DNA from: a virus
Taxonomy: Duplodnaviria > Caudoviricetes
Length of the DNA: 57,610 nt
Virus record (IMG/VR): IMGVR_UViG_3300047560_001024
Location: 1-57,610 of that record
Strand: one strand, 5' to 3'
A program made the translations under genes and the position numbers. The stretch's first letter is position 1; the number at the start of each line of letters is the position of its first letter. Under the pieces are notes generated by a model. That model had not been told where the DNA came from and made no database searches. It was given only the letters and a program-made list of their open reading frames with translations. This document shows positions 1-34,444 of the stretch, piece after piece.

Positions 1-2
1 AT

Positions 3-209
3 CTGGTTCTTGTGGAACCCGGAAAGAGCTTTGTTCGAGTTATCCAATCTATTGGACGAGGTATTAGAAAGGCAGAAGATAAGGACTTTGTACAAATCTG
101 GGATATTACGAGTTCCTGTAAATTCGCTAAACGACATTTAACACAACGCAAGACTTTCTATAAGGAAGCTAACTACCCGTTTGACATTGAAAAACTTACA
201 TATAAGTGA
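3..209 (+). CDS. uvsW: UvsW-like SF2 DNA helicase, C-terminal part (5' truncated by window)
   Basis: Motif VI-like IQSIGRGIRK followed by DITSS..KFAKRHLTQRKTFY; frame open from window start. Confidence 0.85.
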   Translation: MVLVEPGKSFVRVIQSIGRGIRKAEDKDFVQIWDITSSCKFAKRHLTQRKTFYKEANYPFDIEKLTYK

Positions 210-215
210 TAAAAT
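187..215 (+). promoter_or_regulatory. sigma70-type promoter, probably leaderless
   Basis: TTGAAA(187-192)-17 nt-TAAAAT(210-215) with extended TG; ATG 6 nt downstream at 222. Confidence 0.7.
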
Positions 216-221
216 ATAACT

Positions 222-722
222 ATGAGAATACTTACCTTAGACAATACTTTCTATAACTTAGAAACACTACCCGAAGAGGTAGATGATTTGCGCTTTGCTA
301 TACTTGACAACAGTAACACACAAAATGTAGACTATCATTATATCCCTCTTATCTTTTTAGAATCATTCAACAGTCCTGCATTAGTACTACGCATTGGTGA
401 TAGAACAATTAAGATGCCAGTTGATTGGCAGATACTTATCGGCGAACCTGAAATGGGTGACTTAGAAACATTACCGTTGACAAGTATCAACGACAGAGGG
501 TTCAAAGCATTTGAGTTTAATCCCTTGAGCGCATTCAGACCTAGCTTTCAAGACATTGAGATTGTAGATATCTATCACGATGTAACTTGGTATGCACCTA
601 GATTGAAGAACGGGCAGTTCTTATGTGTGCCCATTGATGACGGAGAGAAACCTAGATGTGTTTACTTTGTCAAAGAGATTAGTAGAAATTGTGAAATTGT
701 AGACTATCAACAGGCATTCTAA
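222..722 (+). CDS. hypothetical protein, possible inactive Hint-fold
   Basis: 166 aa beta-rich ORF; RILTLDN, LRIGDRTIKMPVDWQIL and WYAPRLKNGQFL echo Hint blocks without catalytic residues. Confidence 0.7.
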   Translation: MRILTLDNTFYNLETLPEEVDDLRFAILDNSNTQNVDYHYIPLIFLESFNSPALVLRIGDRTIKMPVDWQILIGEPEMGDLETLPLTSINDRGFKAFEFNPLSAFRPSFQDIEIVDIYHDVTWYAPRLKNGQFLCVPIDDGEKPRCVYFVKEISRNCEIVDYQQAF

Positions 723-1318
723 TGGCAACAAAGAAACCAGCAGTACCGACAGACGAAAAACTAGAGAAACAAGACTTTGAGTTATTCAAAGCACTTGATG
801 CTTTGGATCGTAAAGATTACAAGTACTTGGACAACTTAACAGAAGAACAACAAAAGAAGTTTGTCCCGTACATGATGACGCATTGGATGAGTACTATCAA
901 GGGCAACGGTGAGTTGGCAGCATATTATGTAATGAACACTGAGTATGCGGCAAATAAAAATCTTTTCAATGAACACGTACAAAAGCATCCCAAGCTACAG
1001 TGGATGATGCTGTGTGCAAGTAGCCCTGGTGTAGGTAAACAATTCCATCAATGGATACCTCACTTGTCTGCTAAGGTAGCAACGTTAAAAGAAACACCTA
1101 AATCAAAGGATGTTAAAGAGTACTACACAAAAATTTACCCTAAGACAGATGCAGATACTATTGATGCTCTAAGCGAAGCGTTCATTGAGGAACACAAAAA
1201 GAAAGTCTATTTGGCTAAGAAGTTCCCTGAACTAAAATTAACTGATATTGAAACCCTATCATTGCTAGTTACTGATGAAGAAATCAAACAATACGAGCGA
1301 GAACTCGGTAACAATTAA
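722..1318 (+). CDS. clamp loader small subunit (T4 gp62-like)
   Basis: 198 aa; FVPYMMTHWMS...AANKNLF...HPKLQW...KQFHQWI resembles the gp62 pattern; partner gp44-like at 49338. Confidence 0.55.
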   Translation: MATKKPAVPTDEKLEKQDFELFKALDALDRKDYKYLDNLTEEQQKKFVPYMMTHWMSTIKGNGELAAYYVMNTEYAANKNLFNEHVQKHPKLQWMMLCASSPGVGKQFHQWIPHLSAKVATLKETPKSKDVKEYYTKIYPKTDADTIDALSEAFIEEHKKKVYLAKKFPELKLTDIETLSLLVTDEEIKQYERELGNN

Positions 1319-2000
1319 TCCAGCAAAGTATAGCTGTGAGTTTTGTAATCGAGGGTTCTCCAGAGAAAAAACTATTGTCTCACATATTTGCGAGACAAAA
1401 TCACGCTGGCTAAACAGGGACAACAAAGGCAATAGACTAGGGTTTCAATCTTGGTTGCAGTTTTATCAAAAGAACTCAATGAGTAAGACTAAGAACAAGA
1501 CTGTTGAAGAATTCATTCGCAGTCCTTACTATACTGCTTTTGCAAAGTTTGGTTCTTATTGTGCAGATGCTAATGTTATAAACGTAAGCAGATATGTCGA
1601 TTGGCTACTAAAGAATCAGATTAAACTTGATGTTTGGAATACTGATTCTACCTATACCCGTTTCTTAATTGAGTACCTTAGGGTTGAGGATGCCTTTGAT
1701 GCGATACACCGTAGTGTAGAATATTGTATCTCCCAAAGTGAGAACGAAAGTATTCAACCCAAAGATGTGTTACGGTACGGCAACAGCAACCGAATCTGTC
1801 ATGCCATCACAACGGGCAAAATAAGTCCATGGATGTTGTATTGCAGTGACAGTGGTATCCATTTTCTAGAGACATTAAATGAAACCCAAGTTAAAATAGT
1901 ATCTGATTACATTAATCCAGAACAATGGGCATTGAAGTTTCACCGTGAACCAGAACTTAAAAAACAAATCAACGACACCCTCACATTGGCGGGGTACTAG
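1275..2000 (+). CDS. hypothetical protein with N-terminal zinc finger
   Basis: CEFC-x12-HIC motif; 241 aa. Confidence 0.75.
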   Translation: MKKSNNTSENSVTINPAKYSCEFCNRGFSREKTIVSHICETKSRWLNRDNKGNRLGFQSWLQFYQKNSMSKTKNKTVEEFIRSPYYTAFAKFGSYCADANVINVSRYVDWLLKNQIKLDVWNTDSTYTRFLIEYLRVEDAFDAIHRSVEYCISQSENESIQPKDVLRYGNSNRICHAITTGKISPWMLYCSDSGIHFLETLNETQVKIVSDYINPEQWALKFHREPELKKQINDTLTLAGY

Positions 2001-2184
2001 AGTTCGCCTTGATTGGCGTGATGGGCGTGACGATACAGAAGCATGGAATGAAATCTGTGCTTGGGCCATTGAACAATATGGAATGCCTGGTACAAAGTTT
2101 TCTTGGCATCCAATGATTGATTATATGGATTTTTATTTCTATGACGAAAAAGATGCTATTCATTTTAGCTTGAGGTGGTTATGA
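1945..2184 (+). CDS. FxLRW-family small protein
   Basis: AWAIEQYG; ends FYFYDEKDAIHFSLRWL; GTG start. Confidence 0.8.
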   Translation: MNQNLKNKSTTPSHWRGTRVRLDWRDGRDDTEAWNEICAWAIEQYGMPGTKFSWHPMIDYMDFYFYDEKDAIHFSLRWL

Positions 2185-2408
2185 ATTCATTACAACGCAG
2201 ACAACATAAACGAAAAACTGAACATACTATTGTCCTAAGAAACGAAACTGAAAAATACTATCAGTTCGACATGAAGATAGAAAAGGCTAAGAAGTTTTGT
2301 AAAAGAAAATGCAAGGGCTTTTGGATGCATGAAACTGACTGGAACAAAGTTACCTTTAGATTTCAAAAAGAAAGCGATGCAGTATATTTTGGATTGATGT
2401 GGCTATGA
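2181..2408 (+). CDS. FxLRW-family small protein
   Basis: ATGA overlap, GAGGTG SD; ends FRFQKESDAVYFGLMWL. Confidence 0.85.
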   Translation: MNSLQRRQHKRKTEHTIVLRNETEKYYQFDMKIEKAKKFCKRKCKGFWMHETDWNKVTFRFQKESDAVYFGLMWL

Positions 2409-2842
2409 ACTTAAATCACTTAACAGATAATGAACTTATTGACCACGTCATAAAGTATGACACTGATCCTATACGAGTACGACTTGCTACTCACATGCAA
2501 CGAGTGCATGGTGCAATCATCGATGATTTGGTATTTGCCGGCATGGATGATGTGTGGTGTACTTTTAATAGTGTTGTCAATGGTGGAGAATATCATTCAG
2601 GCGATTACATCAGACACCTTGAAAATGAGATTGAGTACCTGCAGAACGAAGTAAGTCAGAATCTCAGAGAGATTGAAAACTTAAAAGCACGAACTATCAT
2701 GGATTTGATTGGTGAACTCAAACAAGAGATTAAGACAGCAGAGTGGTGCAGGGACGAAGCAATCAGAGAACGAAACCATGCTAAAGAGCATGAAAGTATT
2801 ATGAAAAATAAACTTGACATGTGGGCAATATTGAACCGATGA
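2405..2842 (+). CDS. hypothetical coiled-coil protein (non-family insert in array)
   Basis: ATGA overlaps at both ends; heptad-like C-terminal half. Confidence 0.75.
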   Translation: MNLNHLTDNELIDHVIKYDTDPIRVRLATHMQRVHGAIIDDLVFAGMDDVWCTFNSVVNGGEYHSGDYIRHLENEIEYLQNEVSQNLREIENLKARTIMDLIGELKQEIKTAEWCRDEAIRERNHAKEHESIMKNKLDMWAILNR

Positions 2843-3060
2843 GTTACGCTGATAGTTTAATTCAAAAGTGGTATGAAGAAAAAGAGATAAATGAAACATA
2901 CTGGCCCTATCAACATCAAATTAAAGACTGGAAACATATCTATACTGTTGAAAGATTTTGCTATGATAATTTTAAGAGTAAGAACTGGCGCAACCGCGGT
3001 CGTACATTTGCATTCAAGCGCAAACAAGATTATGAATGGTTCTTGTTGAGGTGGCAATGA
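2839..3060 (+). CDS. FxLRW-family small protein
   Basis: ends FAFKRKQDYEWFLLRWQ. Confidence 0.85.
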   Translation: MSYADSLIQKWYEEKEINETYWPYQHQIKDWKHIYTVERFCYDNFKSKNWRNRGRTFAFKRKQDYEWFLLRWQ

Positions 3061-3305
3061 TAGACTTAGACCTTGTAAAAACGATAGTAGCTAGGCAGGG
3101 ACAGAATGAGTTTCTGAAAAACCCTATCGTATTACCACCCGAAGCAAAAGTTGTAACTGGTAAAATCAAAGAAGATGCTTACTTGCATTTTCTAGAAACT
3201 AAATGCGGTGTAGAGGTACTGTTGTCAGATTATCATAACGAAATAATTGGGTACAATGTTATTGATGAAAAGAAGTTTTCTTGGTTCGTATTGAGGTGGA
3301 GTTGA
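3057..3305 (+). CDS. FxLRW-family small protein (IDExK subtype)
   Basis: HFLETKCG; ends YNVIDEKKFSWFVLRWS. Confidence 0.85.
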   Translation: MIDLDLVKTIVARQGQNEFLKNPIVLPPEAKVVTGKIKEDAYLHFLETKCGVEVLLSDYHNEIIGYNVIDEKKFSWFVLRWS

Positions 3306-3583
3306 TGGAATATTTTTACGGTGGCGGCGGAAACAATCGCCCAGTTTTTATATACAGATTCAAAGTGAAAAGTTGTACTCCTACAATGTACAGCTGGGCT
3401 GAAGCCTACCCAGAGAAGGGACCCTTCAGTCGTTTTCATATTGAGTGGCAAAGTGTTTACAGTAAGATGGATAGCCCTAGAGAATATGATGTAATACAGT
3501 TTGAGCATAGTGATGCCGCTAAAGTATTCAGAATCGCATTTGCAGGTGAGTATGAAGATATATCTATGGACGGATATAGATGA
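3305..3583 (+). CDS. divergent FxLRW-family-like protein
   Basis: TGATG overlap; IQFEHSDAAKVFRIAF plus short extension. Confidence 0.7.
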   Translation: MEYFYGGGGNNRPVFIYRFKVKSCTPTMYSWAEAYPEKGPFSRFHIEWQSVYSKMDSPREYDVIQFEHSDAAKVFRIAFAGEYEDISMDGYR

Positions 3584-3894
3584 AAATAGTATGGGGCAGA
3601 AGCATAAACTTCAACATAGAGCTACACAAGGCACGTATGAGTTACAACGGCGCAAACAAATTTAATCCTAGTCCAGGAAAGCAGTACATGGAATACACAA
3701 TCATAACCGATGGTGCAGACTGCTACCCTTGGCACGAATACTTTGCTATCTTGCCACGCAAGACAATTAGTGGTACTCGCATCTTCTGGGAGAAAGCATA
3801 CAAGCGTAAAGTATGGGTAGTGTGGGGCACAGGCTTTCATATGGAACCTGAAACTCAATACGCAACAGCATTTGACTTATTGACGCACGAATGA
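3580..3894 (+). CDS. hypothetical protein (non-family insert)
   Basis: ATGA overlaps both ends; WHEYFAILPRKTISG..IFWEKAYKRK. Confidence 0.75.
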   Translation: MKIVWGRSINFNIELHKARMSYNGANKFNPSPGKQYMEYTIITDGADCYPWHEYFAILPRKTISGTRIFWEKAYKRKVWVVWGTGFHMEPETQYATAFDLLTHE

Positions 3895-4166
3895 AAACTA
3901 GAAACGAATTCACCCGAGTAGAGCACTTCTCTAAATCTAAAACATGGGTTCATTGGAAAAACATGAAAAAGATGAAAGAGATTTATGAGAAACAGTATAC
4001 TGGTTACTATGAGCCAACCACTACCGGCAAGGGCGATAGCTTTGATAAGTGGATTGAAAAGGAATGTGGTATAAAAATATTGTTTGATCCTTACGGCAAC
4101 GTACTAATGGACTTTGATATTATCGATGAAGGTAAGTACATGATGTATGTACTTAAGTACCTATGA
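3891..4166 (+). CDS. FxLRW-family small protein (IDExK subtype)
   Basis: KWIEKECG; ends FDIIDEGKYMMYVLKYL. Confidence 0.8.
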   Translation: MKTRNEFTRVEHFSKSKTWVHWKNMKKMKEIYEKQYTGYYEPTTTGKGDSFDKWIEKECGIKILFDPYGNVLMDFDIIDEGKYMMYVLKYL

Positions 4167-5344
4167 AGATACTTGTGTTAGGTAGAATACCCTCAGCACA
4201 TTTTATGTCTATGCTATTAGCTAAGTCTAATACTGTATATCATTATGGGGCAAACATATCGTATCAGGTTACAGACAACTACATCCCTATTCCTACTAAA
4301 GAAACATATGGCTACTTGATTGGATGTATTGATAAGATAGATTTCGATTTGATTGTCCCTATGCAAATTGAATATCAAATGTCGCATGAATTACGTGAAG
4401 CAATTGATAAGAAGAACATACCCTGCTTCATGCCGTCATACGAGAATACTATGCTTGAGTGGGATAGAGTTAAAACTAAAACAATGTTAGATGAACTTAA
4501 CATACCCACACCTAAGTATTCTGTTATGAATAAGGATGAGTTGTTAAGTAAGTTTACAACTTTGCCTCGCCCCTTTGTATTAAAATGTAACATGTTCTGG
4601 AATGAGGGTGCTCAAACAGTGATTGTCACTGACGATAACTACCAAGCTGAATTAGTTAAGTGCAAAGATAATAATGATGTTGATACCTACGTGATAGATG
4701 AATATATCACTGGGAACGAAATATCATACCATGCTGTATGTAATGGTTCTGAATTCGTCTATATCGGTTCTGCACGAGACTACAAGAAGTTCGAAAACGG
4801 AGATAAAGGATTCAACACAGAAGGAATAGGGTCGTATAGTAACAGTGACCGTTTCTATATCGTTGACCAGTATGCACAAAAAATTGTAGATTACTTGTCA
4901 CAGAAGGGCACGCCTTATGTTGGTATACTTTATCTAGGTATAATTATTGATAAAGACAACGTTCCGTTTGTTCTTGAAATTAATACAAGATTTGGGTGCC
5001 CAGAATCATTGGCTATTCTTTCTACCATAATTACTGATATGTCAACTGTGATGTACAATGCCGCAATTGGTAAAAAGATTCCAGAAATCACGTTCACCGA
5101 TAGTAAAGCAGTTACAGTAATGGTTGTGCCCAAAGATTATCAATATGACCCTGATGCTAATAAACCAATCTTTAATGACATACCGGTAGATATAGTGTAT
5201 AATAGACCCGGATACAGTAGTTGTCACGCATTTACCGTAACTGGTAGCACAGTAGATGAGGCTAGTAAGAAGCTATATTCTTACTTAGATTCGCAGTCTA
5301 TGGGTGACTATGTATATCGCACTGATATAGGTTTTATGAAATGA
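4163..5344 (+). CDS. divergent PurD-like (phosphoribosylamine-glycine ligase family) ATP-grasp protein
   Basis: MKILVLG start; ARDYKKFENGDKGFNTEGIGSYS; PYVGILYLG; LEINTRFGCPE; terminal YRTDIG. Confidence 0.85.
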   Translation: MKILVLGRIPSAHFMSMLLAKSNTVYHYGANISYQVTDNYIPIPTKETYGYLIGCIDKIDFDLIVPMQIEYQMSHELREAIDKKNIPCFMPSYENTMLEWDRVKTKTMLDELNIPTPKYSVMNKDELLSKFTTLPRPFVLKCNMFWNEGAQTVIVTDDNYQAELVKCKDNNDVDTYVIDEYITGNEISYHAVCNGSEFVYIGSARDYKKFENGDKGFNTEGIGSYSNSDRFYIVDQYAQKIVDYLSQKGTPYVGILYLGIIIDKDNVPFVLEINTRFGCPESLAILSTIITDMSTVMYNAAIGKKIPEITFTDSKAVTVMVVPKDYQYDPDANKPIFNDIPVDIVYNRPGYSSCHAFTVTGSTVDEASKKLYSYLDSQSMGDYVYRTDIGFMK

Positions 5345-5784
5345 AATTACGTCTTAAAGCACGTTGGCGACAATATCTTGCTCACCGCAAGTTAGCAAAG
5401 AGTGGCTATCTTTCTTGGCGTGCGTATCGTCATAACCGTGACCCTGATATTGTGCGTTACGCTGACAAAGTAAGTGACTTCTACAAAAACTACAAATATG
5501 TGTACATGTGTGAGCATGGCACAGCACATTATGCTTACAGCGTAGTACATGATTGTGGTCCAGGTGGATTAGTATTCGGTTATGAAGAAATGCGTGATTG
5601 GTGTGAAAGTAAATGTAGATTCAAGTATCGTGTAGACATTCATAGAGGGTTGAAACAAACTGGTCTAGGTATTAACGGTGAAGAATATCCTGAATGGTAC
5701 TTTAACGATATCGGTGGAAGAGACATTGTATTCTTTGCTTTCATGGATGAGCAAGATTACTTGATGTTTAGGTTGAGGTGGTGA
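5341..5784 (+). CDS. FxLRW-family protein, long form
   Basis: EMRDWCESKC; ends FFAFMDEQDYLMFRLRW. Confidence 0.85.
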   Translation: MKLRLKARWRQYLAHRKLAKSGYLSWRAYRHNRDPDIVRYADKVSDFYKNYKYVYMCEHGTAHYAYSVVHDCGPGGLVFGYEEMRDWCESKCRFKYRVDIHRGLKQTGLGINGEEYPEWYFNDIGGRDIVFFAFMDEQDYLMFRLRW

Positions 5785-6170
5785 TGACACAATATTACGA
5801 TCCTAAAATAGCCGTTAATGTAACAGCAACGGCTCAGAAAATACTCATGCCTATGATTAGGAATTTGTATCCACAAATGTTAGCCCAATCTATTCTAGGT
5901 GTACAACCTATGACAGGATCAGTGGGCGAGATTTTTACCATGCGAGCCAGCTACAAACCACAATCAAAATACAAATTCAGTCGTGCTAAATGGTACTACG
6001 CAGACCATCGCTATGAAGATTATGATGCTATCATAGCATGGTGTACTGAACAGTTTGGACCGCGCCCTAAACACCCTGATGCATGGACACGATGGGTTGA
6101 TGAACACATTGACCGTATTAAATTCCGTGACGAAAAAGATTATGCTTGGTTTATGTTGAGGTGGGGATGA
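5784..6170 (+). CDS. FxLRW-family protein fused to a major-capsid-protein (Gol-region) fragment
   Basis: ILMPMIRNLYPQMLAQSILGVQPMTGSVGEIFTMRASY then AWCTEQFG...IKFRDEKDYAWFMLRWG. Confidence 0.85.
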   Translation: MTQYYDPKIAVNVTATAQKILMPMIRNLYPQMLAQSILGVQPMTGSVGEIFTMRASYKPQSKYKFSRAKWYYADHRYEDYDAIIAWCTEQFGPRPKHPDAWTRWVDEHIDRIKFRDEKDYAWFMLRWG

Positions 6171-6430
6171 TGCAAGAACCTTATTTTGTTAGAGAAAGAT
6201 TCATCGTTCCTGTAGGCAGACTGTGGGCAGAACCTTGGCCTAAGTATTTTGACAACTTTTGGAACACTTGTTCTGTTACTGCTAGATTGAATGGTTGGGC
6301 TCCTATTACTGTTGCTAACTATGAACTTAAACCATTAGGTGGTAAACTGATTCAAACTAAAACACAAGGCTGGTACTTACGTTGGGATGATGAAAAGCAT
6401 CACGCATTTTTTGTATTGAAATGGTCATGA
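6167..6430 (+). CDS. FxLRW-family small protein
   Basis: ends YLRWDDEKHHAFFVLKWS. Confidence 0.8.
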   Translation: MMQEPYFVRERFIVPVGRLWAEPWPKYFDNFWNTCSVTARLNGWAPITVANYELKPLGGKLIQTKTQGWYLRWDDEKHHAFFVLKWS

Positions 6431-6663
6431 AAATTGAAATTAAATACGTGCCAGGCAAAAGACCATATCATATTGACGTTCAATGGCGCACAACTAATGA
6501 TTGGAGCTCGTCTCAGGCGTATACATGGTGCATGAAAACATTCGGTCATAGAAACGAGAAGTATGACAACCCTCGTTGGTATGCTAACACTAGATACTTT
6601 ACAGGTGACTTTAAGTTTCGTGACAAAAAAGATGCTGAATGGTTCTTGTTGAGGTGGGGATGA
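6427..6663 (+). CDS. FxLRW-family small protein
   Basis: TWCMKTFG...PRWY...FKFRDKKDAEWFLLRWG. Confidence 0.85.
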   Translation: MKIEIKYVPGKRPYHIDVQWRTTNDWSSSQAYTWCMKTFGHRNEKYDNPRWYANTRYFTGDFKFRDKKDAEWFLLRWG

Positions 6664-6845
6664 ATAGAAAACAAGCGAAATTCAGAGTTCCGTTTAAACG
6701 CACTAACAACTGGTGGGGCGGTGACTGGGCCGACATATCTAATTGGTGTCGCACCAATAATATAGGTCGTTGGGATTACATGAATGAAGAATTTTGGTTT
6801 ACGGAAGAACAAGATTATGTATGGTTTAAGTTGAGGTGGTTATGA
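6660..6845 (+). CDS. FxLRW-family small protein
   Basis: NWCRTNNIGRW...FWFTEEQDYVWFKLRWL. Confidence 0.85.
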   Translation: MNRKQAKFRVPFKRTNNWWGGDWADISNWCRTNNIGRWDYMNEEFWFTEEQDYVWFKLRWL

Positions 6846-7039
6846 AGCAATATGGAATAGCTATTGAGAGTTGGCCTGCTACACGTAAAGTAGATGTTAA
6901 ATGGTGGCTGCTTGAAAACTTTGGACCTGAAGACTCTCCTACACAAAAGGGGCGTTGGGGCTGTGCGTATGACTATGGTTTAGACAATATCTATATGAAT
7001 GAAGATGTTTTTATAATGTATCAATTGAGGTGGAGTTAA
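6842..7039 (+). CDS. FxLRW-family small protein
   Basis: WWLLENFG...GRW...IYMNEDVFIMYQLRWS. Confidence 0.8.
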   Translation: MKQYGIAIESWPATRKVDVKWWLLENFGPEDSPTQKGRWGCAYDYGLDNIYMNEDVFIMYQLRWS

Positions 7040-7242
7040 TGGAACATCAACGATACGGACAATATACTAGTAACTGGACTAATGTTATTGTAGACCCAGC
7101 ATGGCGCGAACCAATCAAAGGTGAACATATTGCTTGGCTAAAAGCACACGAAGGTGGGTACTATCATCTTCATCGTAATGCCACTGCTGTTAAGTTTGAG
7201 CGCAAAGAAGATGCTGAATGGTTTATACTGAGGTGGCTATGA
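7039..7242 (+). CDS. FxLRW-family small protein
   Basis: TAATG overlap; ends VKFERKEDAEWFILRWL. Confidence 0.85.
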   Translation: MEHQRYGQYTSNWTNVIVDPAWREPIKGEHIAWLKAHEGGYYHLHRNATAVKFERKEDAEWFILRWL

Positions 7243-7556
7243 TTACAAGTATTTGGTATCACATAGAAGATAATAGACCCACTAAAACAGGTTATTACCT
7301 TGCTTATAAGAAGCCGTCTCTGGGAGACGATAGTGAAGGGTACGGTGTATATTACTGGGATAATGAGTATACCGATTGGAGGGAGTCGGCGGCCCCTCAT
7401 TCTTATGGTATGAGAGTTACTCTTTGGTCAGAACTACCGGCACATGATCCATATGATTCTACTACACATGCACCCACTATCGCAGAAGTTGATGCTTGGA
7501 ATAATGTCGTAGATGCTATTGACAAATTTAATATGATAAAAGAATTGGGTAGATAA
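7239..7556 (+). CDS. hypothetical protein, DUF551-like pattern (non-family insert)
   Basis: WYHIEDNRP..TGYYL...VTLWSELP resembles WI.V..RLP...VTHW.PLP. Confidence 0.7.
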   Translation: MITSIWYHIEDNRPTKTGYYLAYKKPSLGDDSEGYGVYYWDNEYTDWRESAAPHSYGMRVTLWSELPAHDPYDSTTHAPTIAEVDAWNNVVDAIDKFNMIKELGR

Positions 7557-7903
7557 TGCTAGAAACGATAAACAGACTGTTAAAGCTATTCGGTGGCAAG
7601 GTTCAAGAACAAGCAACCGAAAAGTTTACTAAACCCGGTGACCCATTTAGCCCATTCAAAATAGAAAACGGGATGGTTGGGTTCAAGCCTTACCTAATCG
7701 TTGAGAATCAAAATGAAACCGTGTTATACTCTAATCATAATTGCATAGCGATTGATGTTAGCCCGAATGTTGAACAATGGATACTTACTCAACCTCCCCA
7801 CATGTGGAAGTATGCAGAAGAAACAGATGGTTGTCATTATGCTATGACACGAATTTTAGTGAATGAAGAATTATTAACCTGGATGACATTAAGATGGCTG
7901 TAA
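7556..7903 (+). CDS. FxLRW-family protein
   Basis: VEQWILTQP..MW; ends ILVNEELLTWMTLRWL. Confidence 0.8.
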   Translation: MLETINRLLKLFGGKVQEQATEKFTKPGDPFSPFKIENGMVGFKPYLIVENQNETVLYSNHNCIAIDVSPNVEQWILTQPPHMWKYAEETDGCHYAMTRILVNEELLTWMTLRWL

Positions 7904-8169
7904 AAACTGTTGAAGATAATTTGATGGAAGATATGATGGATGAAGTTGGCAGACAAATTGCCAAAGAGATAGACGAAGGAATCATGTCAACTATGCTAGT
8001 TCAAACTGGCTGGACACCTGTTCAATTTTATTTTAAGAATGGAGAACAAGCAGTTGATATTCAATTCTGGCTGAACGACACTTGTAAGGGTAAGTATCGT
8101 AGATTAGGTAGTGAATACTTGTTTGAACACAAACAAGAAGCAGAGTGGTTTATACTACGATGGGCATGA
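7894..8169 (+). CDS. FxLRW-family protein with acidic N-terminal helix
   Basis: EDMMDEVGRQIAKEIDEGIM; ends YLFEHKQEAEWFILRWA. Confidence 0.8.
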   Translation: MAVKTVEDNLMEDMMDEVGRQIAKEIDEGIMSTMLVQTGWTPVQFYFKNGEQAVDIQFWLNDTCKGKYRRLGSEYLFEHKQEAEWFILRWA

Positions 8170-8423
8170 ATATAAGTGAAGGTCGTGTATACGGGTCACG
8201 CTACTATACCGTCGAACCTGAAATCTCTTGGGATCCTACTAATGATTGGGGTAGTATAGACAAGTGGGCAAGAATGGAAAAATGGTGTATCGATACATAC
8301 GGTTCGACTGGAGAGATATGGGGTGACGACCCTGCCATCTTACATCGTTGGTATATGAATGGTGCTAAATTTTGGTTTAGAGAGAAAAAAGATTTAGAAT
8401 GGTTTATGTTAAGATGGCAATGA
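8166..8423 (+). CDS. FxLRW-family small protein
   Basis: KWCIDTYG...HRWY...FWFREKKDLEWFMLRWQ. Confidence 0.85.
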   Translation: MNISEGRVYGSRYYTVEPEISWDPTNDWGSIDKWARMEKWCIDTYGSTGEIWGDDPAILHRWYMNGAKFWFREKKDLEWFMLRWQ

Positions 8424-8683
8424 AAGAAATTAAAGAACTAGGTAGTTTCAGCTATTGGACTGAGCATTATTACGGTAGCCAGCGAAATATCACTACTATT
8501 AGTTGGAAAGGCAAGGGCGAAGTTGATAGTAGAGAAATTTATAAATGGTGTAAGAAAACATTTGGTAAGAGTGGCTACAGAGAAGATATCGAAGATAGTT
8601 ATTGGGTTGACAATACTGAGTTTGGAGAAATCATGCTATGCAAAGATGAATTCGTTACGGCGTTTCTATTGAGATGGACATGA
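8420..8683 (+). CDS. FxLRW-family small protein
   Basis: KWCKKTFG; ends KDEFVTAFLLRWT. Confidence 0.85.
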   Translation: MKEIKELGSFSYWTEHYYGSQRNITTISWKGKGEVDSREIYKWCKKTFGKSGYREDIEDSYWVDNTEFGEIMLCKDEFVTAFLLRWT

Positions 8684-8898
8684 GTGTCACGATTAAACTT
8701 AACGGTAGATTAGGCCCACATGAAGAACAGTGGTTAGCAAAGAACGTTGGCCCTCGTTTGCACTACCTACACAACAGCGTAGGTGGACAAGGTTGGATCG
8801 CTAGACATGACTGGACTAAAGATAATACTATGCAATGGACTCTTACGTTAGAGAATGAAAGCTATGCTAGTTTCTTTATATTACAGTTTCCGCAATGA
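8680..8898 (+). CDS. FxLRW-family small protein (divergent)
   Basis: QWLAKNVGP; ends LTLENESYASFFILQFPQ. Confidence 0.8.
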   Translation: MSVTIKLNGRLGPHEEQWLAKNVGPRLHYLHNSVGGQGWIARHDWTKDNTMQWTLTLENESYASFFILQFPQ

Positions 8899-9113
8899 TA
8901 GAAGTTAAGGCACTTGATTGGATCCCCAGTCAGGGAATAGAAGTAGTCAATGCTCTCAGAGAAAAAGGCTACGTTATGGGCAGAGACTTCGAATGGGAAT
9001 ATCATAAACCCAAATATGATGACATTACTTACGAAGCAGTGTATAATAGATATATCCTATTCCGATTCTATGAAGATGAATTAGCAACATGGTTTAGTTT
9101 AAGGTATCTATAA
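8895..9113 (+). CDS. FxLRW-family small protein
   Basis: ends FRFYEDELATWFSLRYL. Confidence 0.85.
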   Translation: MIEVKALDWIPSQGIEVVNALREKGYVMGRDFEWEYHKPKYDDITYEAVYNRYILFRFYEDELATWFSLRYL

Positions 9114-9388
9114 TGGCATTATCAACAAGTACGGGAACATTTGCACCATATACAGGTTACTCTGCGCCTGAGGATCGTAGCGGCGTTGAACAAACATCGA
9201 GAGGCCGTGTCCTTTACAAAATCGATTTGAATTATCGAAAGATTAATGAAGTAGAACATGTCAAGTGGTGCCGCAGAAACTTAGGTGATAGGGGTGACGG
9301 CTGGGACTTTTGGTTAGCAGGTGGATTGTTGTATATAGAGTGCTGGGACGATAAGGCTAAGTTCACTTATGAAATGTGGCAAAACTAA
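9113..9388 (+). CDS. divergent FxLRW-family-like protein
   Basis: KWCRRNLG.RG.GWDF; ends IECWDDKAKFTYEMWQN. Confidence 0.75.
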   Translation: MALSTSTGTFAPYTGYSAPEDRSGVEQTSRGRVLYKIDLNYRKINEVEHVKWCRRNLGDRGDGWDFWLAGGLLYIECWDDKAKFTYEMWQN

Positions 9389-9389
9389 T

Positions 9390-9683
9390 ATGACAGAGTT
9401 AGTAACAATAAACGGCATCATCCTATCAATACAACAGTATATGAAGATAGGTGATAAAATCATTTTCTACGAAGCACCTGAACTTGGATCAGGTATTTCT
9501 ATCATATCTGAGGCACAACGACTAGATTACAAAGGTGATGGGTTTACATGTACGTTTCCTTGGCCTCAAAATGACAAAGCACTGTTCAAGCAATTTATGG
9601 ATAGTGTGTACGAAAATCGCAACAATCCTACAGTGAAGGATCAGTTGGAAAAGTTAAAAATAGTAATGGAGTTAATAAGATAA
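9390..9683 (+). CDS. hypothetical protein containing a virion-repeat-like beta module
   Basis: ATG at 9390; VTING...Y...GDKIIFYEAP..G..ISI and YKGDG.T.TF. Confidence 0.7.
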   Translation: MTELVTINGIILSIQQYMKIGDKIIFYEAPELGSGISIISEAQRLDYKGDGFTCTFPWPQNDKALFKQFMDSVYENRNNPTVKDQLEKLKIVMELIR

Positions 9684-10234
9684 TGGCAGATATAATGATT
9701 GACATTGAGAGTTTAGATACAACTCCAAACTGTGTGATATTGACAATTGGTGCAGTATTGTTCGACCCTAAAGGTAACGGCATTATTGATAAACTAGAAT
9801 TGAGACCCACTATCGAAGAACAAACTGATATCTTCAACCGTTCTATTAATCCTGATACTTTGCGTTGGTGGAGTGAACAATCTGAAGCCGCCCAAGAAGA
9901 AGCATTAGGCGATAGAGACAGAGTATCATACAAAGAGTGTATGGATACACTATACAAGTGGTGCTGGAAGTATAACAATGGTAAAGTATGGAGTAACGGT
10001 GCAAGTTTCGACATTGTAGTTATGGAATCAGCATGGCGAGACCATAATCAATTAGCACCGTGGAACTTCTGGAACGTTAGAGACACACGAACTATCTATG
10101 ATATTTGTAATGTCAAACTTAAAGACGGTGGACATACAACAAGTCACAAGGCTGTAGAAGACGCAGAACGACAAGCTATTGTTGTTCAACAAGCATTTAA
10201 GAAATTGATTAAAGCAGAATTAGTTACACCATGA
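9683..10234 (+). CDS. DEDDh 3'-5' exonuclease (DexA/Rv2179c-like)
   Basis: MIDIESL (ExoI), WSNGASFD (ExoII), RDTRT, HKAVEDA (ExoIII). Confidence 0.9.
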   Translation: MADIMIDIESLDTTPNCVILTIGAVLFDPKGNGIIDKLELRPTIEEQTDIFNRSINPDTLRWWSEQSEAAQEEALGDRDRVSYKECMDTLYKWCWKYNNGKVWSNGASFDIVVMESAWRDHNQLAPWNFWNVRDTRTIYDICNVKLKDGGHTTSHKAVEDAERQAIVVQQAFKKLIKAELVTP

Positions 10235-10815
10235 AGTTTCAGTCAGACATAGATATTGACTTTGGTAACCGTGATGATATTCTAAAACATATCAAGCATA
10301 TACCTGCGGCTATGCGTAGAGTTCATCCTGTTCGTAAACATGCGACTGGTATCTATGTTACTGAGATTCCATATGACAGTGATAACGACATTGCTAACTT
10401 AGATTATACAGTAGCAGAAGAACGAGGATATGTTAAGATTGATATGCTGAATGTTCACGTGTACGAGCAAGTGCGTGACGAAGAACATTTGATTGAATTG
10501 ATGGATGAACCCGATTGGTCTATGCTTAAAGATAAAAAGATTGTGGAACAGTTGATTCACTTATCTAATCATTACGACAGCCTTCAGAAGATGCCTGAGC
10601 CAGTTGATACTATGCCCAGACTAGCTATGTTTTTAGCTGTGATTCGACCTGCAAAGAAACATCTTATCGGACAATCATGGAAGACAGTTGCTAATTCTGT
10701 GTGGGAAAAAGAATCAGACGGCTATCACTTTAAGAAAAGTCATAGTGTTGCTTATGCTCAGTTAGTGGGAGTTCATATGAATTTGTTAAGGCAGACGCTT
10801 AACAAGAGTAATTGA
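10231..10815 (+). CDS. mini DNA polymerase III alpha (DnaE)-like protein, catalytic/C-terminal half
   Basis: SDIDIDF, KHATGIY, GYVKIDMLN, AVIRP, GYHFKKSHSVAYA in DnaE order within 194 aa. Confidence 0.85.
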   Translation: MKFQSDIDIDFGNRDDILKHIKHIPAAMRRVHPVRKHATGIYVTEIPYDSDNDIANLDYTVAEERGYVKIDMLNVHVYEQVRDEEHLIELMDEPDWSMLKDKKIVEQLIHLSNHYDSLQKMPEPVDTMPRLAMFLAVIRPAKKHLIGQSWKTVANSVWEKESDGYHFKKSHSVAYAQLVGVHMNLLRQTLNKSN

Positions 10816-15083: not shown

Positions 15084-15113
15084 AAAAAGCCCCTAAAATC
15101 TAGGGGCTTTTTT
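15084..15113 (+). terminator. rho-independent terminator
   Basis: AAAAAGCCCCTA-aaatc-TAGGGGCTTTTTT. Confidence 0.9.
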
Positions 15114-15131
15114 ACCGCTATAAATATCTAC

Positions 15132-33346: not shown

Positions 33347-34426
33347 ATGGGATTTTTTCAAGACCAACTTAAAGCTGCTGGAGACTCGTTCTTCAGCAGT
33401 GAATACCTTCGTGATTATCAACACGCAAGTAAGACGTTTCAGACTAACGGGTATGCATATGCCCCTAAGTTTAAGTTCTTATTTCACGTATACTTTGATA
33501 TAAACAAAACTGGTATAGGTCAGTTTGGAAACTTCCCAGCTGATAGTAATTTTGGGTTAGCTGTAAAATCAATACAGCTACCTAAGTTCAATATTGACAC
33601 ACACGTTTTGAATCAATACAATCGTAAACGTATTGTTCAATCAAAGATTAAATATGATCCAGTTAATATTACGTTCCATGACGATAACAATAACTTGATT
33701 AGAAAATTATGGTACGCATACTACACGTACTATTACAAAGATTCCACTCACCCAGATCCTAACGCACCATTGAATGGTCCTCCCAAACCTGGAGCAGGTA
33801 ACACTCCGTCAGCGATGGATAGAAACATTTACACACCTAGTATAGCAGGTAACGATGACTGGGGTTACGTCGGTGAGACTGCTGGAACACAATCATTAAC
33901 TGGCGGTGATACTAAAGCTCCATTCTTTAATGCTATCAACATCTATGGTTTCAACCAACATAATTTTGCATTGTACAGATTGATGAACCCTATCATTGAA
34001 AGTTTTGGTCACGATACTTATAACTATTCTGACGCTAGTTCAACGATGGAAAATCAAATGACTTTACAGTTTGAAACAGTTAAGTACTTTGAAGGTGCAT
34101 TGAATGGTAAGAATCCTGGACAACTGGTTAAAGAATTCGGCGATGCATCACATTATGATACTATGTTAAGTCCTATCGCTCGTCCTGGAAGTCAAGCAAC
34201 TATCATGGGTCCTGGCGGTTTAGTAGATGCAGGAGAAGGCATCTTAGATGACTTAGCTAGTGGCAATTGGCTTGGTGCTATTCAGAAAGCTGGAACTACT
34301 GTTAAGACGTTCAAGGGCAAAGACTTAGTTGCAATGGGTAAGCAAGAAGCCATTAATGCTGCTAGAAATACAGCACAGAACACACCCAATCGAAACGTAT
34401 ACAATTTCCCATCGGGTAAATTGTAA
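33347..34426 (+). CDS. tube-like baseplate protein (gp48/gp54-like)
   Basis: tube-fold motifs PKFKFLFHV, VKSIQLPKF, NQYNRKR, YDPVNITFHDD, LQFE. Confidence 0.7.
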   Translation: MGFFQDQLKAAGDSFFSSEYLRDYQHASKTFQTNGYAYAPKFKFLFHVYFDINKTGIGQFGNFPADSNFGLAVKSIQLPKFNIDTHVLNQYNRKRIVQSKIKYDPVNITFHDDNNNLIRKLWYAYYTYYYKDSTHPDPNAPLNGPPKPGAGNTPSAMDRNIYTPSIAGNDDWGYVGETAGTQSLTGGDTKAPFFNAINIYGFNQHNFALYRLMNPIIESFGHDTYNYSDASSTMENQMTLQFETVKYFEGALNGKNPGQLVKEFGDASHYDTMLSPIARPGSQATIMGPGGLVDAGEGILDDLASGNWLGAIQKAGTTVKTFKGKDLVAMGKQEAINAARNTAQNTPNRNVYNFPSGKL

Positions 34427-34444
34427 TAAACTATAAATAGTATT

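What the first reader, a model, noticed from the sequence alone, without database searches (positions are those of the whole stretch)
2170..7236. The conserved LRW codons are the next gene's ribosome-binding site: self-coupling cassettes
Seen: in nine genes Leu-Arg-Trp is written (T/C)TG AGG TGG (2170, 3046, 3291, 5773, 6156, 6649, 6831, 7025, 7228), producing GAGGTG a few bases before the downstream ATG, which overlaps the stop (ATGA, TGATG, TAATG). GAGGTG complements the 16S anti-SD, and AGG appears uncommon elsewhere in the window. Inference: each cassette supplies the RBS for whatever lands behind it, so cassettes could be inserted or shuffled in any order and stay translated. The four distal LRW genes use AGA/CGA instead, hinting at a polarity or age gradient.
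Basis: partly seen in the sequence, partly recalled or inferred. Interest (0 to 1): 0.85.

Follow-up and report, generated by a model that had tools for sequence, protein, structure and literature searches.

The report
Ribosome-binding site written into Leu-Arg-Trp codons
In a tandem array of small phage genes, the codons for a conserved protein ending (Leu-Arg-Trp) are chosen so that they also spell a strong ribosome-binding site for the next, overlapping gene; this is a clear and widespread case of a textbook mechanism, not a new one.

Summary
All nine (T/C)TGAGGTGG sites lie at the stated coordinates, all on the + strand. Each encodes Leu-Arg-Trp zero or one residue before a stop that overlaps the next ATG. 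AGG is 69% of Arg codons at this position (9 of 13) against 4% elsewhere in the window.

In 121 related viral contigs the same unannotated family (382 ORFs) uses AGG at this Arg in 59%, against a 7-8% background. The preceding Leu codon ends in G, completing GAGG, only when Arg is AGG. AGG goes with an ATG at a fixed 5 or 8 nt spacing. Predicted pairing to the 16S tail is the strongest in the window.

The ribosome-binding-site reading is therefore well supported, though no experiment has tested it. The "age or polarity gradient" is not supported. AGA/CGA variants make an ATG at the Arg/Trp junction (AG-ATG-G), which serves as the next gene's start.

Cassette order and content differ among relatives, and homology breaks exactly at the stop/start overlaps. 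The RBS therefore travels with the upstream cassette. Boundaries after non-family genes are shuffled as well, and those genes carry no RBS.

The mechanism (intragenic Shine-Dalgarno plus ATGA coupling) is known. The family and its modular use are a new variant. Other notes from this scan on the same window touch this array.

The parts
1945..9388 (+). Tandem array of about 25 tightly overlapping small genes. Nineteen are paralogs of one unannotated family with the C-terminal pattern F.F..e.Da.wF.LRW. Embedded non-family genes start at 2405, 3305, 3580, 4163 (PurD-like) and 7239.
   Evidence: the HMM built from A1 finds 19 ORFs in the window. No Pfam or PHROG match. The start of the first gene is uncertain: GTG at 1945 is inferred from 75-79 aa orthologs.
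2170..2184 (+). Junction 1: TTG AGG TGG TTA TGA. GAGG at 2172-2175; next ATG at 2181 (ATGA overlap).
   Evidence: Predicted pairing with a generic 16S tail is -12.5 kcal/mol.
3046..3060 (+). Junction 2: TTG AGG TGG CAA TGA. Next ATG at 3057 (ATGA overlap).
3291..3307 (+). Junction 3: TTG AGG TGG AGT TGA TG. Next ATG at 3305 (TGATG overlap, 8 nt spacing).
5773..5786 (+). Junction 4: TTG AGG TGG TGA TG, with no tail residue. Next ATG at 5784 (TGATG overlap, 5 nt spacing).
6156..6172 (+). Junction 5: TTG AGG TGG GGA TGA TG. Next ATG at 6167 (or 6170).
6649..6663 (+). Junction 6: TTG AGG TGG GGA TGA. Next ATG at 6660.
6831..6845 (+). Junction 7: TTG AGG TGG TTA TGA. Next ATG at 6842.
7025..7041 (+). 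Junction 8: TTG AGG TGG AGT TAA TG. Next ATG at 7039 (TAATG overlap, 8 nt spacing).
7228..7242 (+). Junction 9: CTG AGG TGG CTA TGA. Next ATG at 7239, the start of a non-family gene.
   Evidence: In relative L034 the ortholog of this downstream gene follows a non-family gene and has no GAGG upstream.
7889..7903 (+). Alternative junction: TTA AGA TGG CTG TAA. The next gene's only ATG (7894) is made of the last base of AGA plus the TG of TGG. No SD.
   Evidence: Orthologs called by other sources start MAVK at the same place. Predicted pairing for the four AGA/CGA junctions averages -3.6 kcal/mol.
8155..8169 (+). Alternative junction: CTA CGA TGG GCA TGA. It has a junction ATG at 8160 and an overlap ATG at 8166, in the same frame. 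No SD.
8409..8423 (+). Alternative junction: TTA AGA TGG CAA TGA. Junction ATG at 8414 and overlap ATG at 8420. No SD.
8669..8683 (+). Alternative junction: TTG AGA TGG ACA TGA. Junction ATG at 8674 and overlap ATG at 8680. No SD.
9099..9115 (+). LRY variant: TTA AGG TAT CTA TAA TG. AGG is used again, giving AAGG 8 nt before the ATG at 9113.
3..2000 (+). Conserved left flank of the array: a helicase-like C-terminus followed by three genes starting at 222, 722 and 1275.
   Evidence: The first two genes (window 3-209 and 222-722) are 87-97% identical in protein in the relatives listed; the genes at 722 and 1275 are 57-78% identical.
9683..10815 (+). Conserved right flank of the array: an Rv2179c-like 3'-5' exoribonuclease gene and the next gene.

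Best explanation
The window is part of an uncultured T4-like phage, probably of jumbo size. Between conserved genes it holds a hyperplastic array of single-gene cassettes, most of them from one large unannotated family of ~60-130 aa proteins. The family has a predicted beta-beta-alpha-beta-beta-alpha fold and ends in ...W-F-x-L-R-W-x-stop.

The protein needs Leu, Arg (or Lys) and Trp at these positions. Among the synonymous spellings, selection has fixed (T/C)TG AGG TGG, because it places a strong Shine-Dalgarno sequence (GAGGTG) 5 nt, sometimes 8 nt, before the next gene's ATG, which overlaps the stop (ATGA, TGATG or TAATG). Ribosomes that finish the upstream cassette, or free 30S subunits, are held by this SD and start the next cassette.

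The translation-initiation region of each gene therefore lies physically inside the preceding cassette. When cassettes are exchanged at the stop/start overlap, whatever comes next inherits it.

A second design uses AGA, CGA or AAA. The last A plus the TG of TGG forms the next gene's ATG itself. There is no SD, so initiation presumably relies on termination-reinitiation.

What is shown: the codon statistics, the covariation, the spacing, and the cassette exchange among relatives. What is inferred: that the SD raises downstream translation, that the array is one polycistronic early transcript, and that SD-less junctions reinitiate.
For: 1. Enrichment.
- Window: AGG at 9 of 13 LRW positions against 29 of 697 other Arg codons.
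- Relatives: 382 family ORFs lie in 79 of the 121 fetched viral loci. At the Arg position the 264 members that have Arg there use AGG 156, AGA 81, CGA 18, CGG 4, CGT 3, CGC 2.
- Background: AGG is 384 of 5158 (7.4%) Arg codons in non-family ORFs and 83 of 1003 (8.3%) elsewhere in the same family ORFs.
- Counting each 50%-identity cluster once, AGG is the majority codon in 51 of the 71 clusters that have Arg there.

2. Local covariation.
- The Leu codon ends in G, completing GAGG, in 105 of 123 members with AGG against 18 of 71 with AGA/CGA (p = 6e-17). Over all Leu codons in the window, 465 of 1385 end in G (TTG or CTG).
- Control: the Phe codon three codons before the Arg codon, outside the SD, is TTT:TTC 95:11 with AGG and 59:7 with AGA/CGA (p = 1.0).

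3. Fixed geometry.
- The tail after the aromatic residue is exactly one residue in 302 of 349 members.
- AGG goes with a stop-overlapping ATG in 102 of 126, against 31 of 74 for AGA/CGA.
- The 13 junctions whose only overlapping start is GTG or TTG include 8 with AGG and 0 with AGA/CGA.

4. Strength.
- Predicted pairing with a generic 16S tail is -10.3 to -12.9 kcal/mol at the nine junctions (9 of 9 at or below -8).
- The comparison groups reach -8 or below as follows: 6 of 54 genes beyond 9400, 0 of 14 other array genes, and 5.3% of random 18-mers.
- In relatives, 94 of 102 AGG junctions are at or below -8, against 0 of 47 junction-ATG-only junctions.

5. The host reads SDs. A 4-nt SD core lies at -16..-5 before 25 of 54 genes beyond 9400, against 6.3% at random positions.

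6. The SD travels with the upstream cassette.
- Orthologs of the genes starting at 7239, 7556, 3305 and 6427 are preceded by GAGG in some relatives and not in others, according to which cassette lies upstream.
- Nucleotide homology to the window ends or begins exactly at the stop/start overlap.

7. Established knowledge. Intragenic SDs before overlapping starts are common, and removing them lowered reinitiation in 4 of 5 E. coli gene pairs (passages read in PMC6728339; abstract of PMC2784483).
Against: - No expression or translation data exist. No RNA run could be listed.
- The host and its 16S tail are unknown, so the pairing energies use a recalled generic tail.
- SD-less junctions are about as frequent as SD junctions in the array, so the SD is not required for a cassette to be kept.
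- Non-family overlapping junctions in the related loci also carry an SD core in 87 of 259, against 69 of 143 for family junctions. The family is therefore only moderately special in this respect.
- A few members that look terminal, with no start within 12 nt, still use AGG. About seven or eight cases remain after discounting classification artefacts.
- Family members are related, so counts of ORFs are not independent events. The cluster-level count and the 13 mixed clusters reduce this concern but do not remove it.
- My gene calls and start choices are rule-based.
Confidence: 0.78

Rival explanations
1. The selected feature is a start codon, not an SD. A purine at the third position of the Arg codon makes an NTG (GTG in AGG-TGG, ATG in AGA/CGA-TGG) in the downstream frame, and that is where every downstream gene starts.
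For: 259 of 264 Arg codons at this position end in A or G, against 56% in the background. The NTG is always in the downstream frame. For AGA/CGA/AAA this reading is very probably right: the gene at 7894 has no other ATG, and 47 relatives have only the junction ATG.
Against: For the AGG class it does not explain three things. The Leu codon ends in G in 105 of 123. An ATG follows at a fixed 5 or 8 nt in 102 of 126. G is preferred over A although ATG is the better start. A GTG directly abutting GAG would have no spacer. The gene models shown from other sources start several orthologs at the overlap ATG.
Confidence: 0.07
2. The shared nucleotides reflect DNA-level processes: gene conversion among cassette 3' ends, or selection for a recombination linker like the PeSL elements. 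AGG is carried along and has no role in translation.
For: Some paralogs share 21 identical bases at their 3' ends (2839-3060 and 6427-6663). One crossover between relatives maps inside the shared GAATGGTT...TTGAGGTGG stretch. T4-type recombination needs only short patches of homology (passage read in PMC2839356).
Against: Codons next to the motif vary freely: the x codon varies, Phe is TTT or TTC, and the tail codon varies. AGG and AGA/CGA alternate within 13 ortholog clusters, in step with the type of start. Gene adjacency is lost after non-family genes (0 of 20 kept) as much as after LRW-AGG genes (2 of 21 kept). The motif is therefore not a privileged breakpoint. A second crossover maps to the bare stop/start overlap, where the window's upstream gene is non-family and shares no 3' homology.
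Confidence: 0.08
3. AGG is kept as a rare, SD-like codon that slows the ribosome just before the stop, or as a target for an mRNA-processing enzyme. On this reading it acts on the upstream protein or on mRNA life, not on downstream initiation.
For: AGG is rare here, at 4-8% of Arg codons. The motif lies 1-2 codons from the stop in every case. From recall, T4 RegB cuts early mRNAs within SD sequences; that was not tested here.
Against: A pause would not need the G of the Leu codon or a fixed distance to an ATG. No conserved RNA structure surrounds the sites. No nuclease gene was sought, and none could be, since only 57.6 kb of the genome is held.
Confidence: 0.04
4. Chance, or general codon bias of early genes.
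For: Early-region codon usage differs a little from that of late genes. AGG is 18 of 165 Arg codons at 1-9400 against 20 of 545 beyond.
Against: Ten of those 18 AGG codons are the motif positions themselves. Shuffles give 0.70 sites against 9 observed. The cluster-level binomial gives p = 3e-39.
Confidence: 0.01

Closest known systems
Translational coupling at overlapping stop/start codons with an intragenic Shine-Dalgarno (termination-reinitiation; Huber et al. 2019, PMC6728339; Palleja et al. 2009, PMC2784483)
   Same: Co-directional genes overlap as ATGA or TGATG, and the SD lies in the last codons of the upstream gene, 4-11 nt before the start. That constrains the upstream gene's codons and stop. 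This is the mechanism I propose.
   Different: Here the SD coincides with a conserved protein motif of a multi-copy family. The same 9-nt solution therefore recurs in hundreds of paralogs and moves with the cassette. Junctions are sharply bimodal, with either a very strong SD or none. Coupling itself is untested.
PeSL elements of T4-type phages (promoter-early stem-loop cassettes; Arbiol et al. 2010, PMC2839356; Comeau et al. 2014, PMC4122927)
   Same: Both are conserved short sequences at the borders of ORFan cassettes in hyperplastic regions of T4-like phages. Both end with an SD and a start codon. In both, cassettes are gained, lost and swapped between relatives while expression signals are kept (here).
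   Different: PeSLs are intergenic elements of roughly 100 bp with a sigma70-type promoter and a stem-loop terminator, so each cassette is transcriptionally autonomous. Here there is no intergenic DNA at all. The signal is translational only, lies inside coding sequence, and belongs to the upstream cassette. No consistent hairpin was found. Breakpoints are not confined to the motif.
Distant relatives of the protein family in cultured jumbo phages PA5oct and Atu_ph07
   Same: The A2 profile finds 3 ORFs in PA5oct and 5 in Atu_ph07 at E <= 0.01, with a best E of 1.7e-6. The six inspected share the ...WC.EN...F.F...(D/E)A..F.L.(F/Y) pattern. The two PA5oct ORFs whose annotation I looked up (181548-181805 and 181966-182187) are annotated as hypothetical proteins.
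   Different: None of the six ORFs inspected ends in LRW-x-stop, and none shows a stop-overlapping ATG or a GAGG at its end. The coupled-cassette design was seen only in the uncultured clade.
PCD/DCoH-like two-layer beta-beta-alpha-beta-beta-alpha fold
   Same: The AlphaFold2 model of the 78-aa member (mean pLDDT 76.1) has strands at 2-7, 16-21, 51-53 and 60-64 and helices at 25-39 and 67-77. The best structural matches are pterin-4a-carbinolamine dehydratases: 2ebb_A with Z 6.8, rmsd 2.6 over 67 residues, and 1uso_B with Z 6.5.
   Different: The tool states that Z below 8 is common for unrelated chains. Foldseek gave nothing at E <= 0.001. Sequence identity is 6-13%. No function can be drawn from this.

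Membership tests
Overlapping-gene translational coupling with intragenic SD | Co-directional genes whose stop and start codons overlap (ATGA, TGATG or TAATG) | tested here: met
   All 9 junctions. In my rough gene calls, 23 of the + strand neighbour pairs in the window overlap by 4 nt and 11 by 1 nt.
Overlapping-gene translational coupling with intragenic SD | Sequence complementary to the 16S 3' tail within about 4-11 nt upstream of the downstream start, inside the upstream gene | tested here: met
   GAGGTG with GAGG ending 5 or 8 nt before the ATG. Predicted pairing is -10.3 to -12.9 kcal/mol with a recalled generic tail. The host's 16S is unknown.
Overlapping-gene translational coupling with intragenic SD | Downstream translation depends on upstream translation and/or on the SD | not testable with these tools
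   Needs reporters or ribosome profiling. No RNA run was listed.
PeSL mobile regulatory cassettes (T4-type phages) | Intergenic element of roughly 100 bp with sigma70-like -35 and -10 boxes | tested here: not met
   No intergenic DNA between 2181 and 10815: all neighbouring genes overlap. The promoter scan found only in-gene consensus matches, 56 against 40.4 expected.
PeSL mobile regulatory cassettes (T4-type phages) | Stable stem-loop acting as terminator or attenuator | tested here: not met
   Folding 100 nt around each of 13 junctions gave no shared hairpin. The probability that the SD is unpaired ranged from 0.23 to 0.74 at the nine AGG junctions.
PeSL mobile regulatory cassettes (T4-type phages) | Lies at the borders of cassettes that are inserted, deleted or swapped between related phages | tested here: met
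   Cassette content and order differ among relatives between conserved flanks. Homology blocks end at gene borders.
PCD/DCoH-like fold (protein family of the cassettes) | Structural similarity clearly above background | tested here: inconclusive
   Best Z is 6.8. Foldseek's best E is 0.22. The profile against PDB sequences gives a best E of 0.73.
Any Pfam or PHROG family (protein family of the cassettes) | Profile match above threshold | tested here: not met
   0 of 98 members match a PHROG at E <= 0.001. In Pfam there are only scattered single hits, plus Gp23 in 2 members that carry an N-terminal capsid-like piece.

The most novel reading that the evidence does not exclude
The W-F-x-L-R-W-x-stop ending is a portable, coding 'translational coupler'. 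In this reading a very large family of early proteins from uncultured, probably jumbo-sized T4-like phages has evolved a C-terminus whose codons double as a very strong ribosome-binding site. It also offers a short patch of homology. Any gene recombined in behind a family member is then expressed at once, and the choice among the AGG, AGA and Lys spellings sets the level of the downstream gene. That would make it a translational, intragenic counterpart of PeSLs or integron cassettes, and one driver of the array's plasticity.
Probability: 0.35. Interest if true: 0.7.

Novelty: new variant of a known kind. Interest (0 to 1): 0.5.

Why it matters
- Codon evidence. This is an unusually clean natural case of a nucleotide-level signal (an SD) shaping synonymous codon choice inside a conserved protein motif. 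It has hundreds of replicates and a built-in control: the AGA/CGA spelling makes a start codon instead.
- Annotation. The finding helps predict starts in these arrays. After AGG the start is the overlap ATG. After AGA/CGA/AAA it can be the junction ATG.
- A family to study. The cassettes belong to a large unannotated family of phage proteins: 5509 cluster representatives at E <= 0.001 in 1.84 billion. Its function is unknown.
- Phage genome evolution. It adds a translational variant to the known ways in which hyperplastic regions of T4-like phages keep shuffled cassettes expressed.
- What it does not do. It reveals no new mechanism of translation.

Tried and rejected
- Near and protein-level searches of the cultured-phage collection with the first 12 kb, a 411-aa protein and a 78-aa family member gave no match. 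Only the helicase placed the phage, about 50% identical to PA5oct-type jumbo phages.
I used a single protein and a DNA pattern that leaves the Leu and Arg codons free.
- RNA evidence: no RNA holder was listed.
- mRNA folding around the 13 junctions showed no shared structure masking the SD. The idea of coupling by unmasking was dropped for lack of support.
- The promoter and terminator scan gave only consensus noise inside genes.
- Structure and function: the PDB sequence profile, Foldseek, VIA-align and the protein atlas gave no usable function. The PCD/DCoH resemblance is generic.
- I first counted 'terminal' family genes to test whether AGG persists without a downstream gene. Most of the 'no ATG' cases proved to be artefacts of my rule: the ATG lay 3-4 nt after the stop, or the downstream ORF was under 40 codons. 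The test is therefore underpowered and I do not lean on it.
- The adjacency test is noisy. Many 'no ortholog' outcomes come from the 60% identity and 15-nt gap thresholds. I use it only to say that breakage is not confined to LRW borders.
- In one search, 1 of the 382 ORFs was dropped because it lay too close to a locus end, and 32 of the 381 kept had no recognisable [LIMVFA]-x-[WYF] ending. Dereplication by the last 40 residues left 277.
- In one search only 14 nt upstream were available for the junction-ATG class.
- Literature: searches found no description of this family or of an LRW-encoded SD. Supplementary files were not opened. Subscription journals are not covered.

Full report
**What is there.** The window is one 57.6 kb contig, and it is all that is held of the genome. 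It carries T4-type genes: a gp15-like sheath stabiliser, a primase, a DnaB/gp41-like helicase and a PurD-like ATP-grasp enzyme. The helicase is about 50% identical to those of the jumbo phages PA5oct and Atu_ph07. From about 1945 to 9388 on the + strand lies an uninterrupted run of small genes whose stops and starts overlap. Nineteen of them are paralogs of one family. They share little beyond a W..C....G segment and the ending F.F..e.Da.wF.LRW. Neither Pfam nor PHROGs knows the family. A profile search of 1.84 billion cluster representatives finds 5509 at E <= 0.001. The 81 homologs that carried source information are unnamed or 'hypothetical' in all but one case, a single 'D-aminopeptidase' label. 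An AlphaFold2 model (mean pLDDT 76.1) is beta-beta-alpha-beta-beta-alpha. Its best structural matches are generic (PCD/DCoH, Z 6.8) and say nothing about function.

**The observation.** Dinucleotide-preserving shuffles give 0.70 on average and at most 4. Each site is Leu-Arg-Trp followed by one residue (or none, at 5773) and a stop. The next ATG overlaps the stop as ATGA six times, TGATG twice and TAATG once. GAGG thus ends 5 nt, or at two sites 8 nt, before the ATG. AGG is 38 of 710 Arg codons in my ORF calls. Nine of those are at the 13 LRW positions and one is at the same position of an LRY variant (p = 8e-10). The four distal LRW genes use AGA three times and CGA once, as stated.

**Is AGG selected, and for what?** I fetched relatives with a DNA pattern that fixes only the Glu-Trp-Phe and Trp codons and leaves the Leu and Arg codons free, plus one protein-based scan. 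That gave 121 loci. A family HMM finds 382 ORFs in 79 of them.

- Among the 264 with Arg at the motif position, the codons are AGG 156, AGA 81, CGA 18, CGG 4, CGT 3 and CGC 2.
- AGG is 7.4% of Arg codons in non-family ORFs of the same loci and 8.3% elsewhere in the same family ORFs. CGT, the commonest codon there, almost vanishes at the motif.
- Counting each 50%-identity cluster once, AGG is the majority codon in 51 of 71 clusters.

Three further patterns point to a Shine-Dalgarno role and away from other causes.

- *Leu covariation.* The Leu codon just before ends in G, which completes GAGG, in 105 of 123 AGG members but only 18 of 71 AGA/CGA members. The Phe codon three codons before the Arg codon shows no such link: 95:11 against 59:7.
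- *Fixed spacing.* The tail is exactly one residue in 302 of 349 members. AGG goes with a stop-overlapping ATG in 102 of 126, against 31 of 74 for AGA/CGA. Junctions whose only overlapping start is the weaker GTG or TTG include 8 AGG and no AGA/CGA.
- *Strength.* Predicted pairing to a generic 16S tail is -10.3 to -12.9 kcal/mol at the nine sites, the strongest set in the window. In relatives it averages -10.7 for AGG junctions and -2.7 for junction-ATG-only junctions.

The phage's other genes show that its host reads SDs. An SD core lies before 25 of 54 genes beyond 9400, against 6.3% at random positions.

**The AGA/CGA genes.** AGA, CGA or AAA followed by TGG spells an ATG in the downstream frame.

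- At 7894 this is the only ATG for the next gene. Two of the four orthologs displayed are called from the same Met-Ala-Val-Lys start; the other two were called five residues further upstream.
- In relatives the junction ATG opens an ORF of at least 40 codons in 62 of 74 AGA/CGA cases. In 33 of these it is the only ATG available.
- The two designs alternate within 13 ortholog clusters.
- These junctions have no SD. Initiation there is presumably by reinitiation of terminating ribosomes. That is an inference.

**Cassettes.** In relatives the array sits between the same conserved genes. On the left are the helicase end and the genes starting at 222, 722 and 1275. On the right are the exoribonuclease gene at 9683 and the gene at 10231. 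The array holds from three or four to more than twenty cassettes, in different orders.

- Nucleotide homology blocks correspond to single genes.
- At two junctions examined base by base, similarity to the window stops or starts exactly at the stop/start overlap. One crossover lies within the shared GAATGGTT...TTGAGGTGG stretch. The other lies at a bare TAATG.
- The same downstream gene (orthologs of the genes starting at 7239, 7556, 3305 and 6427) is preceded by GAGG in some phages and not in others, according to what lies upstream.

Two limits apply.

- Non-family cassettes and the Lys/AGA/CGA variants supply no SD, yet they are kept.
- Adjacency is lost after non-family genes (0 of 20 kept) as after LRW-AGG genes (2 of 21 kept). 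The motif is therefore not shown to be the recombination site. Also, SD cores before overlapping starts are common behind non-family genes in these phages: 87 of 259, against 69 of 143 for family junctions.

**Comparison with what is known.** Intragenic SDs before overlapping starts, and their effect on reinitiation, are established (passages read in PMC6728339; abstract of PMC2784483). PeSL elements are the nearest cassette system in T4-type phages. They are intergenic promoter plus stem-loop plus SD units at the borders of shuffled ORFans (abstract of PMC4122927; passages of PMC2839356). The present array shares the border position and the SD-plus-start. It has no intergenic DNA, no promoter and no hairpin, so it is not a PeSL. 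Cultured relatives PA5oct and Atu_ph07 hold only distant family members that lack the LRW-x-stop design. Five literature searches found no description of the family or of this arrangement. Supplements and subscription journals were not seen.

**Verdict.** The RBS interpretation is well supported by independent codon-level evidence but has not been tested experimentally. The portability claim is supported for AGG-type family cassettes only. The gradient idea is replaced by an alternative start design. The mechanism is ordinary. Its systematic embedding in a conserved protein motif of a very large phage family, within a shuffled array, is a new variant of a known kind and is of moderate interest.

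Noticed in passing
window 5784-6170: One array member carries an N-terminal piece that matches the start of the T4 major capsid protein. Pfam Gp23 (PF07068) matches profile positions 2-57 at E 2.2e-12, and PHROG 138 'major head protein' at E 6.5e-12. This piece is fused to the family domain. Two further family members in relatives match Gp23 weakly, and an atlas cluster of 113 similar proteins has Gp23 on 13% of its members. The fusion may be a capsid-targeting or decoy device; I did not pursue this.
   Followed up: partly
window 4163-5344: A 393-aa PurD-like ATP-grasp protein is embedded in the cassette array and overlaps its neighbours like the small genes. It matches GARS_A at E 2.8e-28, with a weak GARS_C match. 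At the thresholds used, none of the relatives listed showed it at this place.
   Followed up: no
window 2396-2408, 4152-4166, 6416-6430: Family members with Met or Lys in place of Arg (LMW, LKY, LKW) still end one residue before an ATGA overlap but give no SD. In relative L118 the ortholog of the LKW gene has LRW spelled AGG, and the next gene then starts with GTG instead of ATG.
   Followed up: partly
window 3036-3056 and 6639-6659: Two paralogs that are otherwise only 27% identical in protein share 21 identical bases, GAA TGG TTC TTG TTG AGG TGG, at their 3' ends.
   Followed up: partly
window 1945-2000: The first family gene has no ATG. Orthologs of 75-79 aa suggest a GTG start at 1945, which would overlap the preceding gene by 56 nt.
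   Followed up: no
window 15110-15131 and 34423-34444: TATAAATA-type sequences, like the T4 late-promoter motif as I recall it, lie just upstream of several genes beyond 9400. I saw them only in the upstream strings printed.
   Followed up: no
L122-L130 (PA5oct, Atu_ph07): The cultured jumbo phages PA5oct (3 ORFs) and Atu_ph07 (5 ORFs) carry distant members of the same protein family at E <= 0.01. The two PA5oct ORFs whose annotation was checked are annotated as hypothetical proteins.
   Followed up: partly
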